A program made the position numbers and the translations under genes. 64,000 bases of DNA from an uncultured cyanobacterium (GTDB taxonomy: Bacteria; Cyanobacteriota; Cyanobacteriia; Cyanobacteriales; CAWUOF01), in contig CAVUSO010000001.1 of NCBI GenBank assembly GCA_963744145.1, positions 3,360,001 through 3,424,000 of the forward strand, given 5' to 3'. Below, piece after piece: positions 8,047 through 12,720 of the stretch (the stretch's first letter is position 1; the number at the start of each line of letters is the position of its first letter). The notes under the pieces were generated by a model. It was not told the DNA's origin and searched no databases. It worked only from the letters and a program-made list of their open reading frames with translations.

Positions 8047-10383
8047 ATGGAATTTTCGATCGCGACACTGCTTTCCAATTTTGCAGATGATAAATTGGTT
8101 GCCCCTAAAATCTTGGAGAAGAAATTAGGATGTCAAGATGAAACTAGTCTTGATAAGTTGCAAATTGCTTTAGATGTACTCGAGAAAATCGGCTTATTAA
8201 TTAAAGAAAAAGGCCGTTATCGACGAGTAGGTGAAGAAGGGATCGTTGAAGCTAAACTCCGCTGTTCGAGCAAAGGTTTTTGCTTTGCGATTCAAGATAC
8301 GGAAGGTGCCGAAGATATATATATTCGTGAATGTCATCTGAGTAATGCTTGGAATGGCGATCGGGTGTTGGTGAAAATTATCAAAGAAGGTAGTCGTCGT
8401 CGCTCTCCGGAAGGAGAGGTCCGGTTAATTTTAGAACGCGGTAATCCTTCAGTTTTAGCACGGGTGAAACAAACTGAAGTCGGCTATCGAGCGGTTCCTT
8501 TAGATGATCGCCTGTTATTTGAACTCCAACTGAAAGCCAATGGCAATAACTTAGAAGAAGCGATCGATCATTTAGTACATGTCGAAGTTCTGCGCTACCC
8601 TTTAGGACAAAATCTGCCCCTAGGTCGCATCGCTAAGATTCTCGGAATTGATGCTGAAGCAGCTAATGATCTAGATATCGTTTGCTGTAAACATGATTTA
8701 CCCCGCAGTTTTCCTCCCCTGGTGATTGCGACTGGTAATGAGTTATCAAAAACAGTCCGGAAGGTGAATTTTAAAAATAGATTAGATCTACGTGATGTGT
8801 TTACGATCGCTTTTGTAGCTGAAAAAGAAATCAAAACCCAAGAGTCAGCGACGGAAATTACTGCTGCTAGTTATCCGATCGAACACGCGATCACTCTGGA
8901 AACTACTCACCAAACTGGTCAATGGCGTTTAGGTATTCATGTTACGGATGTTTCTCATTTTGTTCAACCTGAAGAAAAATTAGATCGAGAAAGCTTAAAA
9001 CGTGGCACTTCTGTACATCTAGGAGAAACCATCTTACCGATGTTACCTAAATATGTCAGTAGTGAAGTTTGTTCTTTATTACCAGAACAAGATCGATTGG
9101 CAATTTCGGTGTTGATCACTTTAAATGCGAAGGGACAGGTGTTAGAATTTGAAATTCAACCAACGGTCATCCATTTAGATGAATTAATCACCTATGAAAA
9201 AGCCACAGCAATTTTAGAACGTCGTGAGACTAATCGCATTCTGAGTCCGCTTTTGGAGCAACTTTTAGCACTCAGTATTCGTTTACAAGAACAGCGACAT
9301 CAACGTGGTGCTTTTGCCCTAAATTTGCCAGATAGTAAAAATCCCTATGAAGATGAAGGGCTGATTGGTGCGACGATCGTCTATCCCTCTCCTTCAATCA
9401 GGGCAATGATTACAGAGTTAATGATTCTAACTAATCAGCTTGTCGGAGAACATTTAAATGCGCTAGGAGTACCAACAATTTATCGAGTTCAACCTGCTCC
9501 TGATCCGGATGATGTGCAAGAGTTAATTAAATTGGCTAGCACTCTCGGGATTAATTTGCAATTGGAAAGTGAAGATACAGTTAATACTCAAGATATAAAA
9601 TTTTTTACCGAAGAGTTTGCTAAATCTCAAGCAGACAGAGTGTTAACTTATCAGTTACAATCCCTCCTTAGACCAGCACTTTACAGCACAACTCCCAAAC
9701 CTCATTTTGGACTAGCGTTGCATTCGGGATATACTCATTTTACTTCACCCATTCAACGTTATCCAGATTTGTTGGTGCAACGCTCCTTACAAGCAGTGTT
9801 TGAATTAGGTCGCGATCGCCGTACTACTCGGGCTAAAGAAAGGGTTAATTTGCGTCATAGTTCTTGTCACGGTAAAATTAACTGGAATGTATTACCTCCA
9901 GAAGTTCATCATGAATTAGAATCACGTTTGTCTGCTCAGATTGTCCATCTTACTGATCGAGAAAAAGTCGCTTTTGAAGCTCAAGCAGATCTAAGTGGAT
10001 TACAAAAAGCTGGGTTGATGAAAGAACGTACAGGGGAAACTTTTCCAGGATTAATTACAGGTGTTCAGTCTTATGGTTTCTTTGTCGAAATTGAACTCCC
10101 TGGTCCGAAAAATGAACCCCTGAGAGTCGAAGGACTGGTTCATGTTTCCTCGCTCAAAGATGACTGGTATGAATATCGTTCTCGACAAATGACTCTGGTT
10201 GGTCGGAAAAATCGTGCTTCCTATCGATTGGGCGATCGAGTAGAAGTTCAAGTTAAAAGCGTAGATTACTATCGTCAGCAAATAGACTTAGCTGTCGTCA
10301 GTGGTGGTAGTCAAGATGCGGATGATTATGATGATGCGCCTAATTCCGATTTGTCTTTTGACAACGATCCCTATGATTTTTAA
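8047..10383 (+). CDS. Ribonuclease R/II family protein (Zam-like)
   Basis: Cold-shock domain (KGFCFA), RNB domain (HFGLA...YTHFTSPIQRYPDL) and S1 domain. ATG 8047. Confidence 0.92.
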   Translation: MEFSIATLLSNFADDKLVAPKILEKKLGCQDETSLDKLQIALDVLEKIGLLIKEKGRYRRVGEEGIVEAKLRCSSKGFCFAIQDTEGAEDIYIRECHLSNAWNGDRVLVKIIKEGSRRRSPEGEVRLILERGNPSVLARVKQTEVGYRAVPLDDRLLFELQLKANGNNLEEAIDHLVHVEVLRYPLGQNLPLGRIAKILGIDAEAANDLDIVCCKHDLPRSFPPLVIATGNELSKTVRKVNFKNRLDLRDVFTIAFVAEKEIKTQESATEITAASYPIEHAITLETTHQTGQWRLGIHVTDVSHFVQPEEKLDRESLKRGTSVHLGETILPMLPKYVSSEVCSLLPEQDRLAISVLITLNAKGQVLEFEIQPTVIHLDELITYEKATAILERRETNRILSPLLEQLLALSIRLQEQRHQRGAFALNLPDSKNPYEDEGLIGATIVYPSPSIRAMITELMILTNQLVGEHLNALGVPTIYRVQPAPDPDDVQELIKLASTLGINLQLESEDTVNTQDIKFFTEEFAKSQADRVLTYQLQSLLRPALYSTTPKPHFGLALHSGYTHFTSPIQRYPDLLVQRSLQAVFELGRDRRTTRAKERVNLRHSSCHGKINWNVLPPEVHHELESRLSAQIVHLTDREKVAFEAQADLSGLQKAGLMKERTGETFPGLITGVQSYGFFVEIELPGPKNEPLRVEGLVHVSSLKDDWYEYRSRQMTLVGRKNRASYRLGDRVEVQVKSVDYYRQQIDLAVVSGGSQDADDYDDAPNSDLSFDNDPYDF

Positions 10384-10636
10384 TCGTTAGTAGTTAGACT
10401 TTAGTAGTTATTTTTTTGCTGCTAATGTCTATCTGCTCACAAAAAACATGGGTTTGTGGGAAGCTCAGGTTCTTTAGACCGTTCGACTACGCTCACTTAG
10501 AGCCTGAGAGGGAAACGACCCAAGTGGTTTTAACCACCAGAGAATATTTCTTAATCTTACCATTGCTTTTGTAGAAAAGACTTACTTTTTTCTCGACATT
10601 AAGCTATGATGTATATAGAGAAAGGAAAGTAATCAA

Positions 10637-12047
10637 ATGGTCAAAAAAAAGAAAACAGAAAAGAAGCCCCGTAGGGGGCGTATTGCAATACGCCCGTACT
10701 TAGGTGTTCAGCAAAATTTAATTAATGCTGGTTCAGAGTTAAAAGCAATTCTTGAATTTATTTGTTCAGAGTCCAATAAACTACACAATTGTGCTACCTA
10801 TTACGCTCGTCAAATCTGGTTCAAAACTCGCAGATTTGTAACGAAGTTTGAGATCGGGGCACACCTAATACAAACTAAAAATAGACATTTTTCTGCCCTA
10901 CCATCCGATGCCGCAACACAAACTTGTAATGCCGTAGGTGAGTCAATTAGTTCCTTCGCCAAATTACGAGAACTTTGGCTGAGTGGTCAACTCGAAACTA
11001 AACCCAACTTGCCCAATTATCGGAAAACAGGTGGCTATCAATTAATTGCCTATCCGAAACGATCGCTAAGGTTAATTGATGGAAAGATTAGATTTCCTTT
11101 AGGGTTGCAAATCAACGCTTGGTTTGGCATCAAAGAGTTTTTCCTACCAAAGCCAGTACGGGCGTATTGCAATACGCCCCTAGATTTTGAGTCTGTTAGA
11201 GAAGTCAGAATCCTCCCAAGAAATGGATGTTTTTATGCAGAGTTTGTCTACCCAAACTTAGTCGAAAAACCTGTTCTAGACCCAGCTAAATGCTTAGGGT
11301 TAGATCACGGTTTAAACAACTGGCTAACAGCCGTTAGTAATGTGGGCACAAGTTTTATTATTGATGGCAAACACTTAAAATCTGTTAACCAATGGTACAA
11401 CAAACAAATAGCCAAACTCAAAGCTGGTAAACCAGAGGGGTTTTGGTCTAATCGTCTGGCAGCAATGACTGAAAAACGAAACAGACAGATGAGGGATGCT
11501 ATCAACAAAGCGGCTCGGTTAGTGATAAACCATTGTTTGAATAATGGGATAGGAACTTTAGTATTTGGTTGGAATAAAGGACAAAAAGATAGCATTGAGT
11601 TAGGTAAGAAAACTAATCAGTACGGGCGTATTGCAATACGCCCCTACCAAATACCTACGGCTAGACTCAAAGCAAGACTTGAACAACTTGGTAAATTGTT
11701 CGGCATTAAGTTTGAAGAAACTGAAGAAAGCTACACAAGTAAAGCTAGTTTTTTAGACGCTGACCCCATGTACGGGCGTATTGCAATACGCCCCTACGAT
11801 GGTGAAAAACCTTTTATAATGGACAGCATCAGGAAAAAGAGTTAAACGAGGCTTGTATGTCAGTTCTAAAGGCATTCAAGTTAATGCCGATTGCAACGGT
11901 GCAGCTAATATTTTGAGAAAAGTAGCGGTGAATCTTGGGCTAGTCCTAAGTGAAATCAGTAGAGGTGTCTTGTACGCGCCTTTGAAGGGGCGTATTGCAA
12001 TACGCCCGTACAGACTCTGGACTATTCAAGAATCTCCGTGTCTTTAG
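10637..12047 (+). pseudogene. tnpB: TnpB RNA-guided nuclease, frameshifted near 11812-11819, with five REP-derived inserts
   Basis: RuvC-I LGLDHGLNN, EESYTSKAS, RuvC-III NADCNGAANI and C-terminal QESPCL. The frame shifts between GEKP and WTASGKRVKRGLY. Confidence 0.9.
10671..12011. repeat. Five copies of palindrome GTAGGGGCGTATTGCAATACGCCCGTAC (10671, 11156, 11620, 11770, 11986)
   Basis: The 20-bp perfect palindromic core GGGCGTATTGCAATACGCCC is identical in all copies. Both orientations occur. Confidence 0.95.
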
Positions 12048-12093
12048 ACCTGAGAGTATCAATGATCAACTCTTACCAATAAAAACTTACAAA

Positions 12094-12720
12094 TTGCAAC
12101 ATCATCCTTTAATTTTGGGAATTTCTGGAGCATCTGGTCTGATCTATGCTGTCCGTTCCCTGAAATTTTTATTGCAGGCAAATTATCCAATTGAGTTAGT
12201 CGCCTCGAAAGCAAGTTATTTGCTCTGGCAAAGTGAGTATGGGCTAAAAATGCCCGCCCAAATGCCTAAACAGGAGGAATTTTGGCGTCAACAAGCGGGT
12301 GTAGAAAATAGTGGTAAGCTGACCTGTCATTTTTGGCATAATGTGGGCGCTAATATTGCTAGTGGTTCCTTTCGCACACTGGGGATGATAGTGATTCCTT
12401 GCAGTATGAGTACAGTAGCTAAACTAGCAGTAGGGATGAGTTCTGATTTATTGGAACGAGCTGCTGATGTCCAACTCAAAGAAGGTCGTCCCTTGGTGAT
12501 TGTACCGCGCGAAACTCCCTTGAGTCTGATTCATCTCCGGAATTTGACTGCTTTAGCCGAAGCTGGTGCCCGAATTGTCCCAGCAATTCCTGCTTGGTAT
12601 CATCAACCCCAGACTATTGAGGATTTGGTCGATTTTGTGGTTGCTCGCGCTTTAGATCAGCTCAATATTGATTGTGTTCCCCTGCGTCGGTGGGAAGGAC
12701 TTGCTCCTGATGCTGATTAA
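12094..12720 (+). CDS. ubiX: Flavin prenyltransferase
   Basis: LILGISGASG, ANIASGS, PCSMST, RAADVQLKEGRPLVIVPRETP. Probable TTG start at 12094; the ORF-track start lies inside the IS. Confidence 0.93.
   Translation: MQHHPLILGISGASGLIYAVRSLKFLLQANYPIELVASKASYLLWQSEYGLKMPAQMPKQEEFWRQQAGVENSGKLTCHFWHNVGANIASGSFRTLGMIVIPCSMSTVAKLAVGMSSDLLERAADVQLKEGRPLVIVPRETPLSLIHLRNLTALAEAGARIVPAIPAWYHQPQTIEDLVDFVVARALDQLNIDCVPLRRWEGLAPDAD

What the first reader, a model, noticed from the sequence alone, without database searches (positions are those of the whole stretch)
10637..12047. tnpB colonised five times, always in frame, by one REP-like palindrome
Seen: five copies of GTAGGGGCGTATTGCAATACGCCCGTAC lie within 1.4 kb (10671, 11156, 11620, 11770, 11986), in both orientations. 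They read GRIAIRPY (four times) or VRAYCNTP (once). None breaks the frame, and I saw no copy elsewhere in the 64 kb. From recalled homolog motifs (KTNQ-KFV-QIPT, LP.P-SN-LDF), the copies appear to replace 1-3 codons rather than simply insert, and there is no obvious target duplication. Established: GTAG-headed REPs are processed by RAYT HUH enzymes related to IS200/IS605 TnpA, and small dispersed repeats enter cyanobacterial ORFs. Inference: either a mechanism writes this hairpin preferentially into IS605-type DNA/RNA (for example its ssDNA intermediate), or TnpB stayed under selection while acquiring peptide loops. The last copy lies where the omega-RNA normally overlaps the gene end. This is my strongest candidate for an undescribed process.
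Basis: partly seen in the sequence, partly recalled or inferred. Interest (0 to 1): 0.82.

Follow-up and report, generated by a model that had tools for sequence, protein, structure and literature searches.

The report
REP hairpins inside a tnpB gene
A 28-base palindromic repeat of a known bacterial kind (a REP, the hairpin handled by RAYT enzymes) has landed five times in one transposon gene without breaking its reading frame. The many filled and empty sites in this genome show that it lands at a short AAGTT motif.

Summary
In detail: five perfect copies of a 20-nt palindrome with 4-nt feet lie in a 1.4-kb IS200/IS605-family tnpB, and each changes the length by +18 or +21 nt. The gene is nevertheless broken by a separate +1 frameshift at 11812-11817.

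The repeat is a "double-foot" GTAG REP of the RAYT (TnpA_REP) subclass 2.4 type, which is a described class. In-frame REPs inside genes are also already in print. The genome holds 167 copies.

In a related genome, the same palindrome flanks and sits inside a RAYT gene. This genome has no close relative of that RAYT.

Comparing filled sites with insert-free paralogs gave two results:
- The REP replaces a short patch centred on AAGTT, and its orientation follows the motif.
- The net length change ranges from +14 to +23 nt. It is a multiple of three in TnpB/IscB genes (12 of 13) but not in DDE transposase remnants (1 of 6).

Frame-keeping therefore comes from selection, not from the insertion mechanism. 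All five window sites map to loops or tails of a TnpB model.

Copies are enriched in insertion-sequence genes of several kinds, not only IS605. An IS605-specific writing mechanism is not supported.

Earlier notes of this scan on the same genome had already found subclass 2.4 REPtrons.

The parts
10442..12062 (+). IS200/IS605-family element carrying tnpB only (no tnpA). The ends are inferred from where similarity to 12 paralogs starts and stops: the left end follows TCACA and the right end closes with GTATCAA.
   Evidence: Alignment of 13 copies. PF01385 match at window 11261-11569. NCBIfam NF040570 guided_TnpB scores 121.7 bits against a cut-off of 100.
10637..11845 (+). tnpB ORF, first part (402 aa), ended early by the frameshift.
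11812..11817 (+). 6-nt patch (TTTTAT) where paralogs have 5 nt (CGAAG, CACAG or CGCAG). It causes a +1 frameshift that makes this copy a pseudogene, unless it is an assembly error.
   Evidence: Alignment and tblastn offsets. Not checked by reads.
11820..12047 (+). tnpB C-terminal part in the shifted frame (WTASGKRVKRGLY... to QESPCL stop). The ORF listing gives 11853..12047.
10671..10699 (+). REP copy 1, GTAG-G-core-GTAC (29 nt). It replaces 8 nt (AAGTACCG), net +21. The extra G keeps the TAG of the head out of frame. It lies in the N-terminal tail of TnpB.
11156..11183 (-). REP copy 2, read GTAC-core-CTAG on the + strand. It replaces ACTAAC(C/T), net +18, and removes the invariant residue N166. 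The target holds AACTT. It lies in a loop between two strands.
11620..11647 (-). REP copy 3, GTAC-core-CTAC. It replaces AAACTTTGTC, net +18, and removes the near-invariant residues F315 and V316. It lies at the end of a low-confidence loop before helix 317-334. Paralog c6642 has the same site filled.
11770..11797 (-). REP copy 4, GTAC-core-CTAC plus G. It replaces CCCAACTT, net +21. It lies in the low-confidence loop 346-363 where a Zn finger sits in other TnpB and Cas12f proteins. The intact paralog c4591 has the same site filled.
11984..12011 (+). REP copy 5, GAAG-core-GTAC. The target is TTGAAGTTCAG, net +21. It lies in the C-terminal tail of TnpB, 51 nt from the 3' end of the IS, inside the stretch where the guide (omega) RNA scaffold is expected. 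Paralogs c4591 and c6642 have the same site filled.
10481..10504 (+). 24-nt copy of a different small dispersed repeat (TCGACTACGCTCA type, 171 genome copies). It splits the loop of the left-end hairpin CTCAG-N11-CTGAG.

Best explanation
The five palindromes are copies of a 28-nt 'double-foot' REP: a GTAG foot, an 8-10 bp GC-rich stem, and a complementary CTAC foot. This is the type that goes with RAYT / TnpA_REP enzymes of subclass 2.4.

Shown here:
- The family has 167 copies in this genome.
- New copies replace a short patch of target DNA, about 5-14 nt if the unit is taken as 28 nt, centred on AAGTT.
- The orientation of the REP follows the orientation of the motif, and there is no target duplication.
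- The same sites have been filled repeatedly in different paralogs.
- The net length change is not fixed (+14 to +23 nt).
- The core has no stop codon in any frame. The only possible stop is the TAG of the GTAG foot.

In genes that are kept by selection, only insertions that add a multiple of three, avoid that TAG and fall in loops survive. This is why this tnpB lineage shows five in-frame peptide loops.

Inferred, not shown: the reaction is done on single-stranded DNA by a RAYT-type HUH enzyme whose cleavage sites are chosen by the GTAG/GTAC feet. The target centre is C|T on one strand and G|T on the other. These are the dinucleotides reported for GTAG and GTAC guides.

The high density in tnpB is best read as a combination of four things: many target motifs, tolerance of loops in a long-lived non-essential ORF, clustering of REPs near existing REPs, and age of the copy. 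It is not best read as IS605-specific targeting.

The window copy itself is now a pseudogene.
For: Identity of the repeat:
- The core is a perfect 20-nt palindrome. There are 167 copies with at most 3 mismatches, 87 of them exact. The commonest feet are GTAG..CTAC (44), GTAG..GTAC (24) and GTAC..CTAC (23).
- In G007, three exact copies lie upstream of, inside (in frame, between HuH and Y) and at the 3' end of a 196-aa RAYT. NCBIfam's best hit for it is REP-associated tyrosine transposase.
- This matches the published description of subclass 2.4 (PMC6006769, passages). That paper's Table S1 lists 28-nt GTAGGGGC...GCCCCTAC palindromes and GTAGGGGCGTATTGCATACGCCC.

Target motif:
- Of 38 distinct empty-site sequences for asymmetric copies, 17 hold exact AAGTT in the REP's orientation and 1 holds it in the opposite orientation. 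The null is 3.6%, binomial P = 4e-15.
- Most of the rest hold near variants (AAGTA, GAGTT, TAGTA).
- The five window sites read CAAGTAC, TAAGTTA, AAAGTTT, TAAGTTG and GAAGTTC.

Selection, not mechanism, keeps the frame:
- Net changes run from +14 to +23.
- Counted by gene family, multiples of three are 12 of 13 in TnpB/IscB (P = 1.7e-5 at 1/3, my arithmetic), 1 of 6 in DDE transposases and 0 of 2 in Y1 TnpA.
- dN/dS is 0.19 between the window copy and its nearest paralog.
- Paralog c4591 is an intact 448-aa ORF with inserts 4 and 5.
- In the AlphaFold model (pLDDT 78.6), all five sites are coil or tail. Of the 6 unfilled exact motif sites in the gene, 4 lie in helices or strands.

Recurrence at the same sites:
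- Carriers of the two Uma2 sites are scattered over a 41-paralog tree, needing at least 3 changes each.
- Flanks of the shared tnpB sites resemble the REP-free paralog. For the left flank of site 5, identity is 81/83 to c6249 against 74/83 and 73/83 to the carriers.

Enzyme logic: published cleavage at C|T for a GTAG guide and at G|T or G|A for a GTAC guide (PMC8266576, passages).

This REP family is distinct within the genome: 18-20% of its GTAG-headed copies lie in ORFs of 150 aa or more, against 0-2% for the large REP families that flank the two resident RAYTs.
Against: - No RAYT in this genome is flanked by this REP. The two RAYT homologs are only 42% identical to the G007 enzyme and are flanked by other GTAGGGGC-headed repeats. 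The enzyme is therefore not identified, and the family may be orphaned.
- The junctions are not simple single C|T joints. In many events the whole 28-nt unit is present and extra target bases are lost or changed. A replication template switch or repair-type capture fits them about as well.
- Sites 2 and 3 remove invariant or near-invariant residues (N166; F315, V316). Those two inserts may not have been compatible with function.
- For the window copy alone, five of five in frame has a chance probability of about 0.4%, so it is not overwhelming evidence.
- My first tally (14 of 14 against 4 of 23) sorted cases by whether the ORF is intact. That is partly circular, so the by-family tally is the one to trust.
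- Density in the window gene (3.5 per kb) is about 38 times that of non-coding-like DNA (0.092 per kb). Tolerance alone does not explain this.
- Identical junctions at shared sites could still come from very short-patch gene conversion.
Confidence: 0.7

Rival explanations
1. The REP is written preferentially into IS200/IS605-family DNA, for example into its single-stranded transposition intermediate. The idea rests on RAYT and IS200 TnpA being related enzymes that act on ssDNA hairpins.
For: - TnpB loci have the joint-highest density: 20 copies in 28 loci, 0.40 per kb against a genome mean of 0.022. Y1 TnpA loci have 0.30 and IscB loci 0.21.
- In the window copy, 4 of the gene's 11 exact AAGTT/AACTT sites are filled, against 0.6% occupancy genome-wide (167 copies, 27,402 sites).
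- TnpB inserts survive despite a frame filter, so the raw hit rate must be higher than the density suggests.
Against: - ISL3 loci, which encode a DDE transposase with a double-strand mechanism, have the same density: 5 copies in 7 loci, 0.40 per kb. DDE_Tnp_1 and DDE_3 loci have 0.10-0.11 per kb.
- Eight Uma2 genes, two kinases, a YcaO gene and a DUF1822 gene also carry copies.
- In 40 ORFs that span this exact REP in other phyla, none is a TnpB.
- REP-bearing tnpB copies are all single-copy. The multi-copy, apparently active ones (5 identical copies with tnpA and 3 near-identical copies) carry none.
- The carriers also have a disrupted left-end hairpin, which suggests old, immobile copies.
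Confidence: 0.15
2. The copies arise without a dedicated enzyme. One route is double template switching of a stalled polymerase onto another REP. Another is capture of REP hairpin DNA during repair, guided by microhomology between the REP feet (TAG...TAC) and AAG|T(T/A)C in the target.
For: - The target resembles the two feet joined without the core (TAG|TAC against AAG|TTC or AAG|TAC).
- Junctions vary by 1-10 nt and sometimes carry an extra base, for example the G in copy 1.
- Foot variants such as GAAG/CTTC are partly target-derived and partly copied with the element.
- No cognate RAYT is present in the genome.
Against: - The same 28-mer co-occurs with one RAYT clade across phyla. In 4 of 5 sampled genomes that hold it, a RAYT 52-62% identical to the G007 enzyme is present.
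- Strict orientation with respect to a 5-nt motif, and repeated filling of the same sites with identical junctions, look more like a site-specific enzyme.
Confidence: 0.12
3. Only a few insertions happened. The window copy collected its REPs from other paralogs by gene conversion, so 'five colonisations of one gene' overstates the number of events.
For: - Sites 3, 4 and 5 are shared with c6642 and/or c4591 with identical junctions.
- Similarity of the window copy to its paralogs varies along the gene.
Against: - The 80-nt flanks of the shared sites are not closer to the REP-carrying paralogs than to the REP-free c6249.
- Sites 1 and 2 are unique to the window copy.
- Uma2 carriers are scattered on their tree.
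Confidence: 0.1
4. The peptides are native to this TnpB lineage, or the inserts are assembly artefacts.
For: None beyond the fact that read support could be checked for only one insert.
Against: - 0 of the 119 other best homologs hold GRIAIRP, AYCNTP or VLQYA.
- 12 paralogs give clean empty sites.
- A contig from a public run bridges insert 1 exactly.
- The same palindrome occurs 167 times in the genome.
Confidence: 0.02

Closest known systems
Double-foot REPs of TnpA_REP (RAYT) subclass 2.4, Quentin et al. 2018 (PMC6006769; passages and Table S1 seen)
   Same: - 5' GT[AG]G foot, three G-C pairs at the stem base and a 3' C[TC]AC foot.
- 28-nt perfect palindromes with a GTAGGGGC head.
- Abundant in cyanobacteria.
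- REPs inserted in frame inside the RAYT gene between HuH and Y, as seen here in G007.
   Different: - Here the family has no cognate RAYT in the genome.
- 62 of 167 copies lie in ORFs of 100 aa or more, mostly in genes of mobile elements.
- A target motif can be read from the filled and empty sites.
- This exact sequence was not found in their table.
Intragenic GTAG/CGTC REPs, Di Nocera et al. 2013 (PMC3733652; passages seen) and Rickettsia palindromic elements (cited there)
   Same: - Small palindromes lying inside ORFs without breaking them.
- Sometimes two per gene.
- Read in that paper as neutral inserts in loops, with disruptive ones removed by selection.
   Different: - Hosts reported there are mainly DNA replication and repair genes.
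- The passages and supplements I searched name no transposase or TnpB host.
- No target motif and no replacement of target bases appear in the passages read.
- RPEs are longer and CGTC-tagged.
Small dispersed repeats (SDR) of Nostoc, Elhai et al. 2008, Genome Res 18:1484. The paper is not held. It is known to me only by recall and through citing papers.
   Same: By recall: 21-27 nt hairpin repeats in filamentous cyanobacteria that insert into genes, MITEs and IS elements and appear mobile by an unknown mechanism.
   Different: - This could not be tested.
- A citing paper says SDR5 may insert at HIP1 (GCGATCGC) and that SDRs were confined to Nostocaceae.
- Here the target is AAGTT and the genome belongs to a different, small family.
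IS200/IS605 TnpA and E. coli / Marinomonas TnpA_REP biochemistry (Corneloup et al. 2021, PMC8266576; passages seen)
   Same: - Hairpin plus a 5' tetranucleotide guide that selects the cleavage dinucleotide: C|T for GTAG, and G|T or G|A for GTAC.
- The centre of the target found here is C|T on one strand and G|T on the other.
   Different: - No integration into a target has been shown for any RAYT in the passages read.
- The junctions here lose target bases, which canonical IS608-type insertion does not do.

Membership tests
GTAG-type REP of RAYT subclass 2.4 (double foot) | Palindromic stem-loop of 20-40 nt with a 5' GT[AG]G foot | tested here: met
   The core is a perfect 20-nt palindrome. 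A GTAG head was the commonest among the 167 copies. In the window, copy 1 has a GTAG head and copy 5 a GAAG head on the + strand. Copies 3 and 4 read GTAG on the - strand, and copy 2 reads CTAG there.
GTAG-type REP of RAYT subclass 2.4 (double foot) | Complementary 3' foot C[TC]AC | tested here: met
   44 copies read GTAG..CTAC. All five window copies are the asymmetric form with one GTAC foot, which puts a C-C mismatch at the stem base.
GTAG-type REP of RAYT subclass 2.4 (double foot) | Dispersed in many copies in the genome | tested here: met
   167 copies in 127 clusters.
GTAG-type REP of RAYT subclass 2.4 (double foot) | Copies flank a cognate RAYT gene (REPtron) | tested here: not met
   Not met in this genome. 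The two RAYT homologs (42% identity) are flanked by other REP families. It is met elsewhere: G007 and 2 of 80 public loci. 4 of 5 sampled carrier genomes encode a RAYT 52-62% identical to the G007 enzyme.
GTAG-type REP of RAYT subclass 2.4 (double foot) | Extragenic location (the 'E' of REP) | tested here: not met
   62 of 167 copies are spanned by a stop-to-stop ORF of 100 aa or more. Intragenic REPs are, however, described for this class.
RNA-guided nuclease TnpB (IS200/IS605 accessory gene) | Sequence membership | tested here: met
   NF040570 scores 121.7 bits against a cut-off of 100. PF01385 scores 68.4 bits.
RNA-guided nuclease TnpB (IS200/IS605 accessory gene) | Canonical RuvC D-E-D triad and Zn finger | tested here: inconclusive
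   The first Asp (GLDHG) and last Asp (NAD) are present. Where AsCas12f (8j12) has Glu, the whole family has Gly (FGWN), and the CxxC pairs are absent. This rests on a weak profile alignment, E = 0.015. A relocated Glu is possible; that is my recall and was not tested.
RNA-guided nuclease TnpB (IS200/IS605 accessory gene) | Uninterrupted ORF | tested here: not met
   +1 frameshift at 11812-11817. Paralog c4591, which has two REPs, is intact.
MITE | Terminal inverted repeats plus target-site duplication | tested here: not met
   No duplication was seen at any of the 46 distinct empty-site comparisons. Target bases are lost instead.
SDR elements of Nostoc (Elhai 2008) | Sequence families SDR1-8 and their insertion behaviour | not testable with these tools
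   The paper is not held. A full-text search for the 20-mer found 0 papers.

The most novel reading that the evidence does not exclude
A single REP hairpin of 28 nt, not a REPIN doublet, is a complete mobile unit. It is integrated by a RAYT-type enzyme through a cut-out-and-replace reaction at AAGTT, with the orientation set by the motif.

The same 28-mer, identical to the base, is spread over at least 18 phylum-level groups together with one RAYT clade.

In this genome it has repeatedly hit the same sites in TnpB, IscB and Uma2 genes. That makes them natural reporters of REP integration and adds peptide loops to RNA-guided nucleases that remain under selection.
Probability: 0.3. Interest if true: 0.7.

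Novelty: new member of a known kind. Interest (0 to 1): 0.45.

Why it matters
How REPs spread is an old open question. The papers I could read say the dissemination mechanism is poorly understood, and they report no target site.

This genome offers about 40 natural pairs of filled and empty sites. They give a target motif (AAGTT), an orientation rule and the junctions. All of these can be tested directly with purified RAYT in the published cleavage and strand-transfer assay.

The finding also shows that TnpB and IscB tolerate 6-7 residue net gains in particular loops. An intact TnpB with two such loops exists here. This is practical information for engineering these small nucleases.

For the scan itself, the lesson is that a run of in-frame palindromes in a gene is the expected footprint of a stop-free REP filtered by selection. 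It is not a sign of a new writing mechanism.

Tried and rejected
- IS605-specific targeting: rejected as the main reading, because ISL3 and other DDE loci are enriched too.
- GAAG heads as mutations that avoid the in-frame TAG: dropped. GAAG-headed copies occur in all three frames, and the head is partly target-derived.
- A simple C|T single-joint model: it does not fit many junctions.
- First in-frame tally by ORF intactness (14 of 14 against 4 of 23, Fisher P = 5e-7): kept only as a secondary figure because the sorting is partly circular.
- Strand bias relative to replication: GC skew is flat and asymmetric copies split 40:39, so there is no test of a lagging-strand preference.
- Rfam: no family matched in 10300-12300.
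- RNA folds of the 3' end with and without copy 5 gave no clear answer on whether the guide-RNA scaffold tolerates it.
- PDB sequence search with one paralog found nothing. The profile search gave only a weak hit.
- Sequencing runs: no RNA holder is listed. Only contigs of one soil-metagenome study were available, and they are too fragmented to bridge copies 2-5 or the frameshift.
- Elhai 2008 could not be read, so overlap with the SDR families is untested.
- The supplements of PMC3733652 held no match for 'transposase'.
The look-up by place was used instead.
Full report
**1. The observation**

The 28-nt pattern occurs at five places in the window and nowhere else. The count is 9 matches over both strands, against 0 expected in 100 shuffles. 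The units are 10671-10699, 11156-11183, 11620-11647, 11770-11797 and 11984-12011.

All five 20-nt cores, GGGCGTATTGCAATACGCCC, are exact, and the core is its own reverse complement. The host is an IS200/IS605-family tnpB (NF040570 121.7 bits against a cut-off of 100; PF01385).

At 11812-11817 the window has 6 nt where all aligned paralogs have 5. This copy is therefore frameshifted for a reason that has nothing to do with the palindromes.

**2. Inserts against empty sites**

The window lies at C1:3360001-3424000 of a 7.70-Mb genome with 39% G+C. tblastn found 12 further copies of this tnpB. Aligned with the window copy, nine of them have none of the palindromes.

Against them, the five window inserts add +21, +18, +18, +21 and +21 nt and remove 1-4 codons of the original gene. 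There is no target duplication.

- Sites 4 and 5 are also filled in paralog c4591, an intact 448-aa ORF.
- Sites 3 and 5 are also filled in c6642. That copy is dead and also carries a sixth, frame-breaking insert (+22) and a MITE-like element.
- Of the 120 best database homologs, only the window's own protein holds the palindrome peptides.

Read support could be checked only through contigs of one soil-metagenome study. One 201-nt contig bridges insert 1 without a difference. Nothing listed bridges the other inserts or the frameshift.

**3. What the repeat is**

The genome holds 167 copies with at most 3 mismatches, 87 of them exact. The commonest form is the fully symmetric GTAG-core-CTAC (44 copies). 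The asymmetric forms GTAG..GTAC, GTAC..CTAC and GAAG..GTAC make up most of the rest.

Among 41 genomes of the same order, the exact core occurs only here and in G007, which has 3 copies. In G007 the three copies lie upstream of, inside and at the 3' end of a 196-aa ORF with the HuH (NHLHG) and Tyr (YYE) motifs of a RAYT. The internal copy is in frame. NCBIfam's best hit for that ORF is REP-associated tyrosine transposase, 66 bits against a cut-off of 80.

This is the arrangement that Quentin et al. 2018 describe for TnpA_REP subclass 2.4. They report REPs with a 5' GT[AG]G and a 3' C[TC]AC 'double foot', abundant in cyanobacteria, with REPs inserted in frame within the RAYT gene between HuH and Y (PMC6006769, passages). 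Their Table S1 lists 28-nt GTAGGGGC...GCCCCTAC palindromes and a near-identical GTAGGGGCGTATTGCATACGCCC.

Di Nocera et al. 2013 had already reported GTAG REPs inside ORFs, sometimes twice in one gene. They read them as inserts in loops, with disruptive ones removed by selection (PMC3733652, passages). The class and its in-frame behaviour are therefore known.

This genome has two RAYT homologs, at 6661747-6662280 and 4373058-4373594. Both are only 42% identical to the G007 enzyme and are flanked by other GTAGGGGC-headed repeat families. Earlier notes of this scan on the same genome reached the same reading of those loci. No RAYT here is flanked by the palindrome of the finding.

**4. Where the copies sit**

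62 of 167 copies are spanned by a stop-to-stop ORF of 100 aa or more. These fall in 52 ORFs, which cluster into 30 groups. I sent 34 representative ORFs to Pfam; the two ORFs of the IS element at 5991082-5993021 were not sent and were read. The 34 ORFs gave these hosts:

- several TnpB families;
- an IscB with two copies;
- an IS607 resolvase and its neighbouring ORF;
- ISL3, IS4-like, IS630 and IS1 transposases;
- Uma2 nuclease paralogs (8 in all);
- two sensor kinases;
- a YcaO protein;
- a DUF1822 protein;
- a 431-aa ORF of an 8-copy element.

A Y1 TnpA in the 5991 element also carries a copy at its 3' end.

Copy density per kb:

| Compartment | Copies per kb | Detail |
|---|---|---|
| TnpB loci | 0.40 | 20 copies, 11 of 28 loci hit |
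| Y1 TnpA loci | 0.30 | |
| IscB loci | 0.21 | |
| ISL3 loci | 0.40 | 5 copies, 4 of 7 loci hit |
| DDE_Tnp_1 loci | 0.10 | |
| DDE_3 loci | 0.11 | |
| Genome mean | 0.022 | |
| Non-coding-like DNA | 0.092 | |
| Coding-like DNA | 0.0095 | |

The enrichment is thus general to insertion-sequence genes, not special to IS605.

Copies are also clustered: 40 have a neighbour within 2.5 kb, against 8.6 expected (maximum 21 in 2000 shuffles).

The multi-copy, apparently active IS copies carry none, including five identical IS605 copies with tnpA. The REP-bearing tnpB copies are single-copy. Three of them, plus one REP-free copy, also have the loop of the left-end hairpin split by another small repeat.

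The other large GTAGGGGC-headed families of this genome are almost never intragenic (0-2% against 18-20%).

**5. Target and junctions**

For every copy, I searched the genome for paralogous DNA in which the two flanks are adjacent. This gave 46 distinct empty-site sequences.

Oriented so that the REP reads GTAG..GTAC, 17 of the 38 sites belonging to asymmetric copies hold exact AAGTT, and 1 holds it in the opposite orientation. The null is 3.6% in random windows of the same lengths, P = 4e-15. The one exception is site 4, where most paralogs do have the motif in the expected orientation. Most other sites hold AAGTA, GAGTT or TAGTA.

All five window sites fit: CAAGTAC, TAAGTTA, AAAGTTT, TAAGTTG and GAAGTTC. 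The two + and three - orientations of the inserts follow the motif.

The insert-free gene has 11 exact AAGTT/AACTT sites, 8.3 per kb against 3.6 per kb genome-wide. Four are filled in the window copy and a fifth in c6642.

The REP replaces the motif and a few neighbouring bases. Taking the unit as 28 nt, 5-14 nt of target are lost, and the net change runs from +14 to +23.

Published work on RAYTs shows cleavage at C|T chosen by the last bases of the GTAG guide, and at G|T or G|A when the guide is changed to GTAC (PMC8266576, passages). The centre of the target here is C|T on one strand and G|T on the other, and the asymmetric REP carries GTAG on one strand and GTAC on the other. I take this as a lead for a RAYT-type reaction, not as proof, because many junctions cannot be drawn as a single C|T joint.

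In the papers I could search or read, I found no target site for REP or REPIN insertion. Elhai et al. 2008 could not be read.

**6. Why the frame is kept**

The core has no stop codon in any of the six frames. The only possible stop is the TAG of the GTAG foot in one frame, read directly from the sequence. In copy 1 an extra G moves that TAG out of frame.

My first tally (14 of 14 in intact ORFs against 4 of 23 elsewhere) sorted cases by ORF intactness, which is partly circular. Counted by gene family instead, the results are as follows.

- **TnpB/IscB: 12 of 13 multiples of three** (P = 1.7e-5 at 1/3, my arithmetic).
  - Nine were measured from empty sites: window sites 1-5, two in IscB, and one each at 5991769 and 6307450.
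  - Three were inferred from Pfam domains lying on both sides in one frame: L011, L012 and L023.
  - The exception is c6642's own insert, +22.
- **DDE transposases: 1 of 6.**
- **Y1 TnpA: 0 of 2.**

These counts rest.

Three further results agree with selection:

- dN/dS among the tnpB paralogs is 0.10-0.19, and 0.19 for the window copy against its nearest relative.
- In an AlphaFold2 model of a REP-free paralog (47-sequence alignment, pLDDT 78.6, pTM 0.70), all five sites are coil or tail, and three lie in or beside segments with pLDDT under 50.
- Of the six unfilled exact motif sites, four lie in helices or strands. The frame-breaking insert of the dead copy lies in a helix.

Against a simple 'still functional' reading, sites 2 and 3 remove invariant N166 and near-invariant F315 and V316, and the window copy is now frameshifted.

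**7. Recurrence**

Four Uma2 paralogs carry the REP at one site and four at another, with the same junction at the first site and similar ones at the second. On a tree of 41 paralogs built without the REP columns, the carriers are scattered. Each site needs at least 3 changes, and well-supported branches force at least 2.

Around the tnpB sites shared between paralogs, the window's flanks are closest to the REP-free c6249. For the left flank of site 5, identity is 81/83 to c6249 against 74/83 and 73/83 to the carriers. Repeated hits of the same site are therefore more likely than gene conversion, though very short conversion tracts cannot be excluded.

**8. Verdict**

The finding is a real and unusually dense case of a known phenomenon: in-frame REPs in genes, here from a RAYT subclass 2.4 type family. 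The idea of an IS605-specific writing process is not.

What I did not find in print is the AAGTT target with replacement of a short patch, the orientation rule, and TnpB, IscB and Uma2 genes as repeated hosts. The enzyme is not identified, and the genome lacks a close relative of the RAYT that accompanies this REP elsewhere.

Noticed in passing
L046-L125 (public genome records): The exact 20-nt core, mostly as the full 28-mer GTAG..CTAC, occurs in at least 123 stretches from at least 18 phylum-level groups by record title. The groups include Planctomycetota, Atribacterota, several CPR groups, Bacteroidota, Chloroflexota, Nitrospirota, Omnitrophota and Cyanobacteria. Most occurrences are single copies with unrelated flanks. 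4 of 5 sampled carrier genomes encode a RAYT 52-62% identical to the G007 enzyme. An identical REP across phyla is unusual and suggests horizontal spread of one REPtron.
   Followed up: partly
window 11812-11817: A 6-nt patch, TTTTAT, replaces 5 nt (CGAAG, CACAG or CGCAG in the paralogs) and frameshifts tnpB. It involves several substitutions plus one extra base, so it is not a simple homopolymer error. Its origin is unknown.
   Followed up: partly
window 10481-10504: A 24-nt copy of another small dispersed repeat (TCGACTACGCTCA type, 171 genome copies, often tandem) sits in the loop of the left-end hairpin CTCAG-N11-CTGAG of the IS. The same insert is present in paralogs c4591, c6642 and c7311.
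   Followed up: partly
alignment A1; window tnpB around 11540-11560 and 11740-11850: This whole cyanobacterial TnpB family has Gly (FGWN) where AsCas12f has the second RuvC catalytic Glu. It also lacks the Cys pairs of the Zn finger, yet it evolves under purifying selection.
   Followed up: no
G000:C1:4092964-4094346 (L033): An intact 461-aa IscB (NF040563, 443.7 bits) carries two in-frame copies of the same REP, each +21 nt.
   Followed up: partly
G000, eight Uma2 (PF05685) genes, e.g. C1:1348596-1349207 and C1:6338204-6338815: Two sites in this expanded nuclease family, after IE in LLIE|..|TT and in VDIE|..|EVY, have each been filled in four different paralogs, adding GAYCNTPV.
   Followed up: yes
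G000:C1:2734732-2736165 and seven further copies: An 8-copy element with a 431-aa ORF and no Pfam match carries two copies of the REP 174 nt apart. One copy is +17 nt at the 3' end of the ORF and the other is +23 nt downstream. The REPs here spread by hitch-hiking on the element. One REP-free copy of the element exists.
   Followed up: partly
G000:C1:6642022-6642273 region (paralog c6642): A MITE-like insert of about 230 nt, with ATACCAATT/AATTGGTAT ends and a GTAGGGGCGGGTTCACC-type REP pair inside, splits this tnpB copy.
   Followed up: no
proteins P0005, P0006 (Kamptonema and a relative): Homologous TnpBs carry a different 8-residue insert (VGEATLKEL) just after site 4. This suggests that the same loop accepts small inserts in other cyanobacteria.
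   Followed up: no
G000:C1:5991082-5993100 (L001): A full IS605-type element with divergent tnpA and tnpB has the REP at three places: the 3' end of tnpA (+20), the N-terminal part of tnpB (+21) and just past tnpB (+21). At first sight this mimics a RAYT flanked by REPs.
   Followed up: yes
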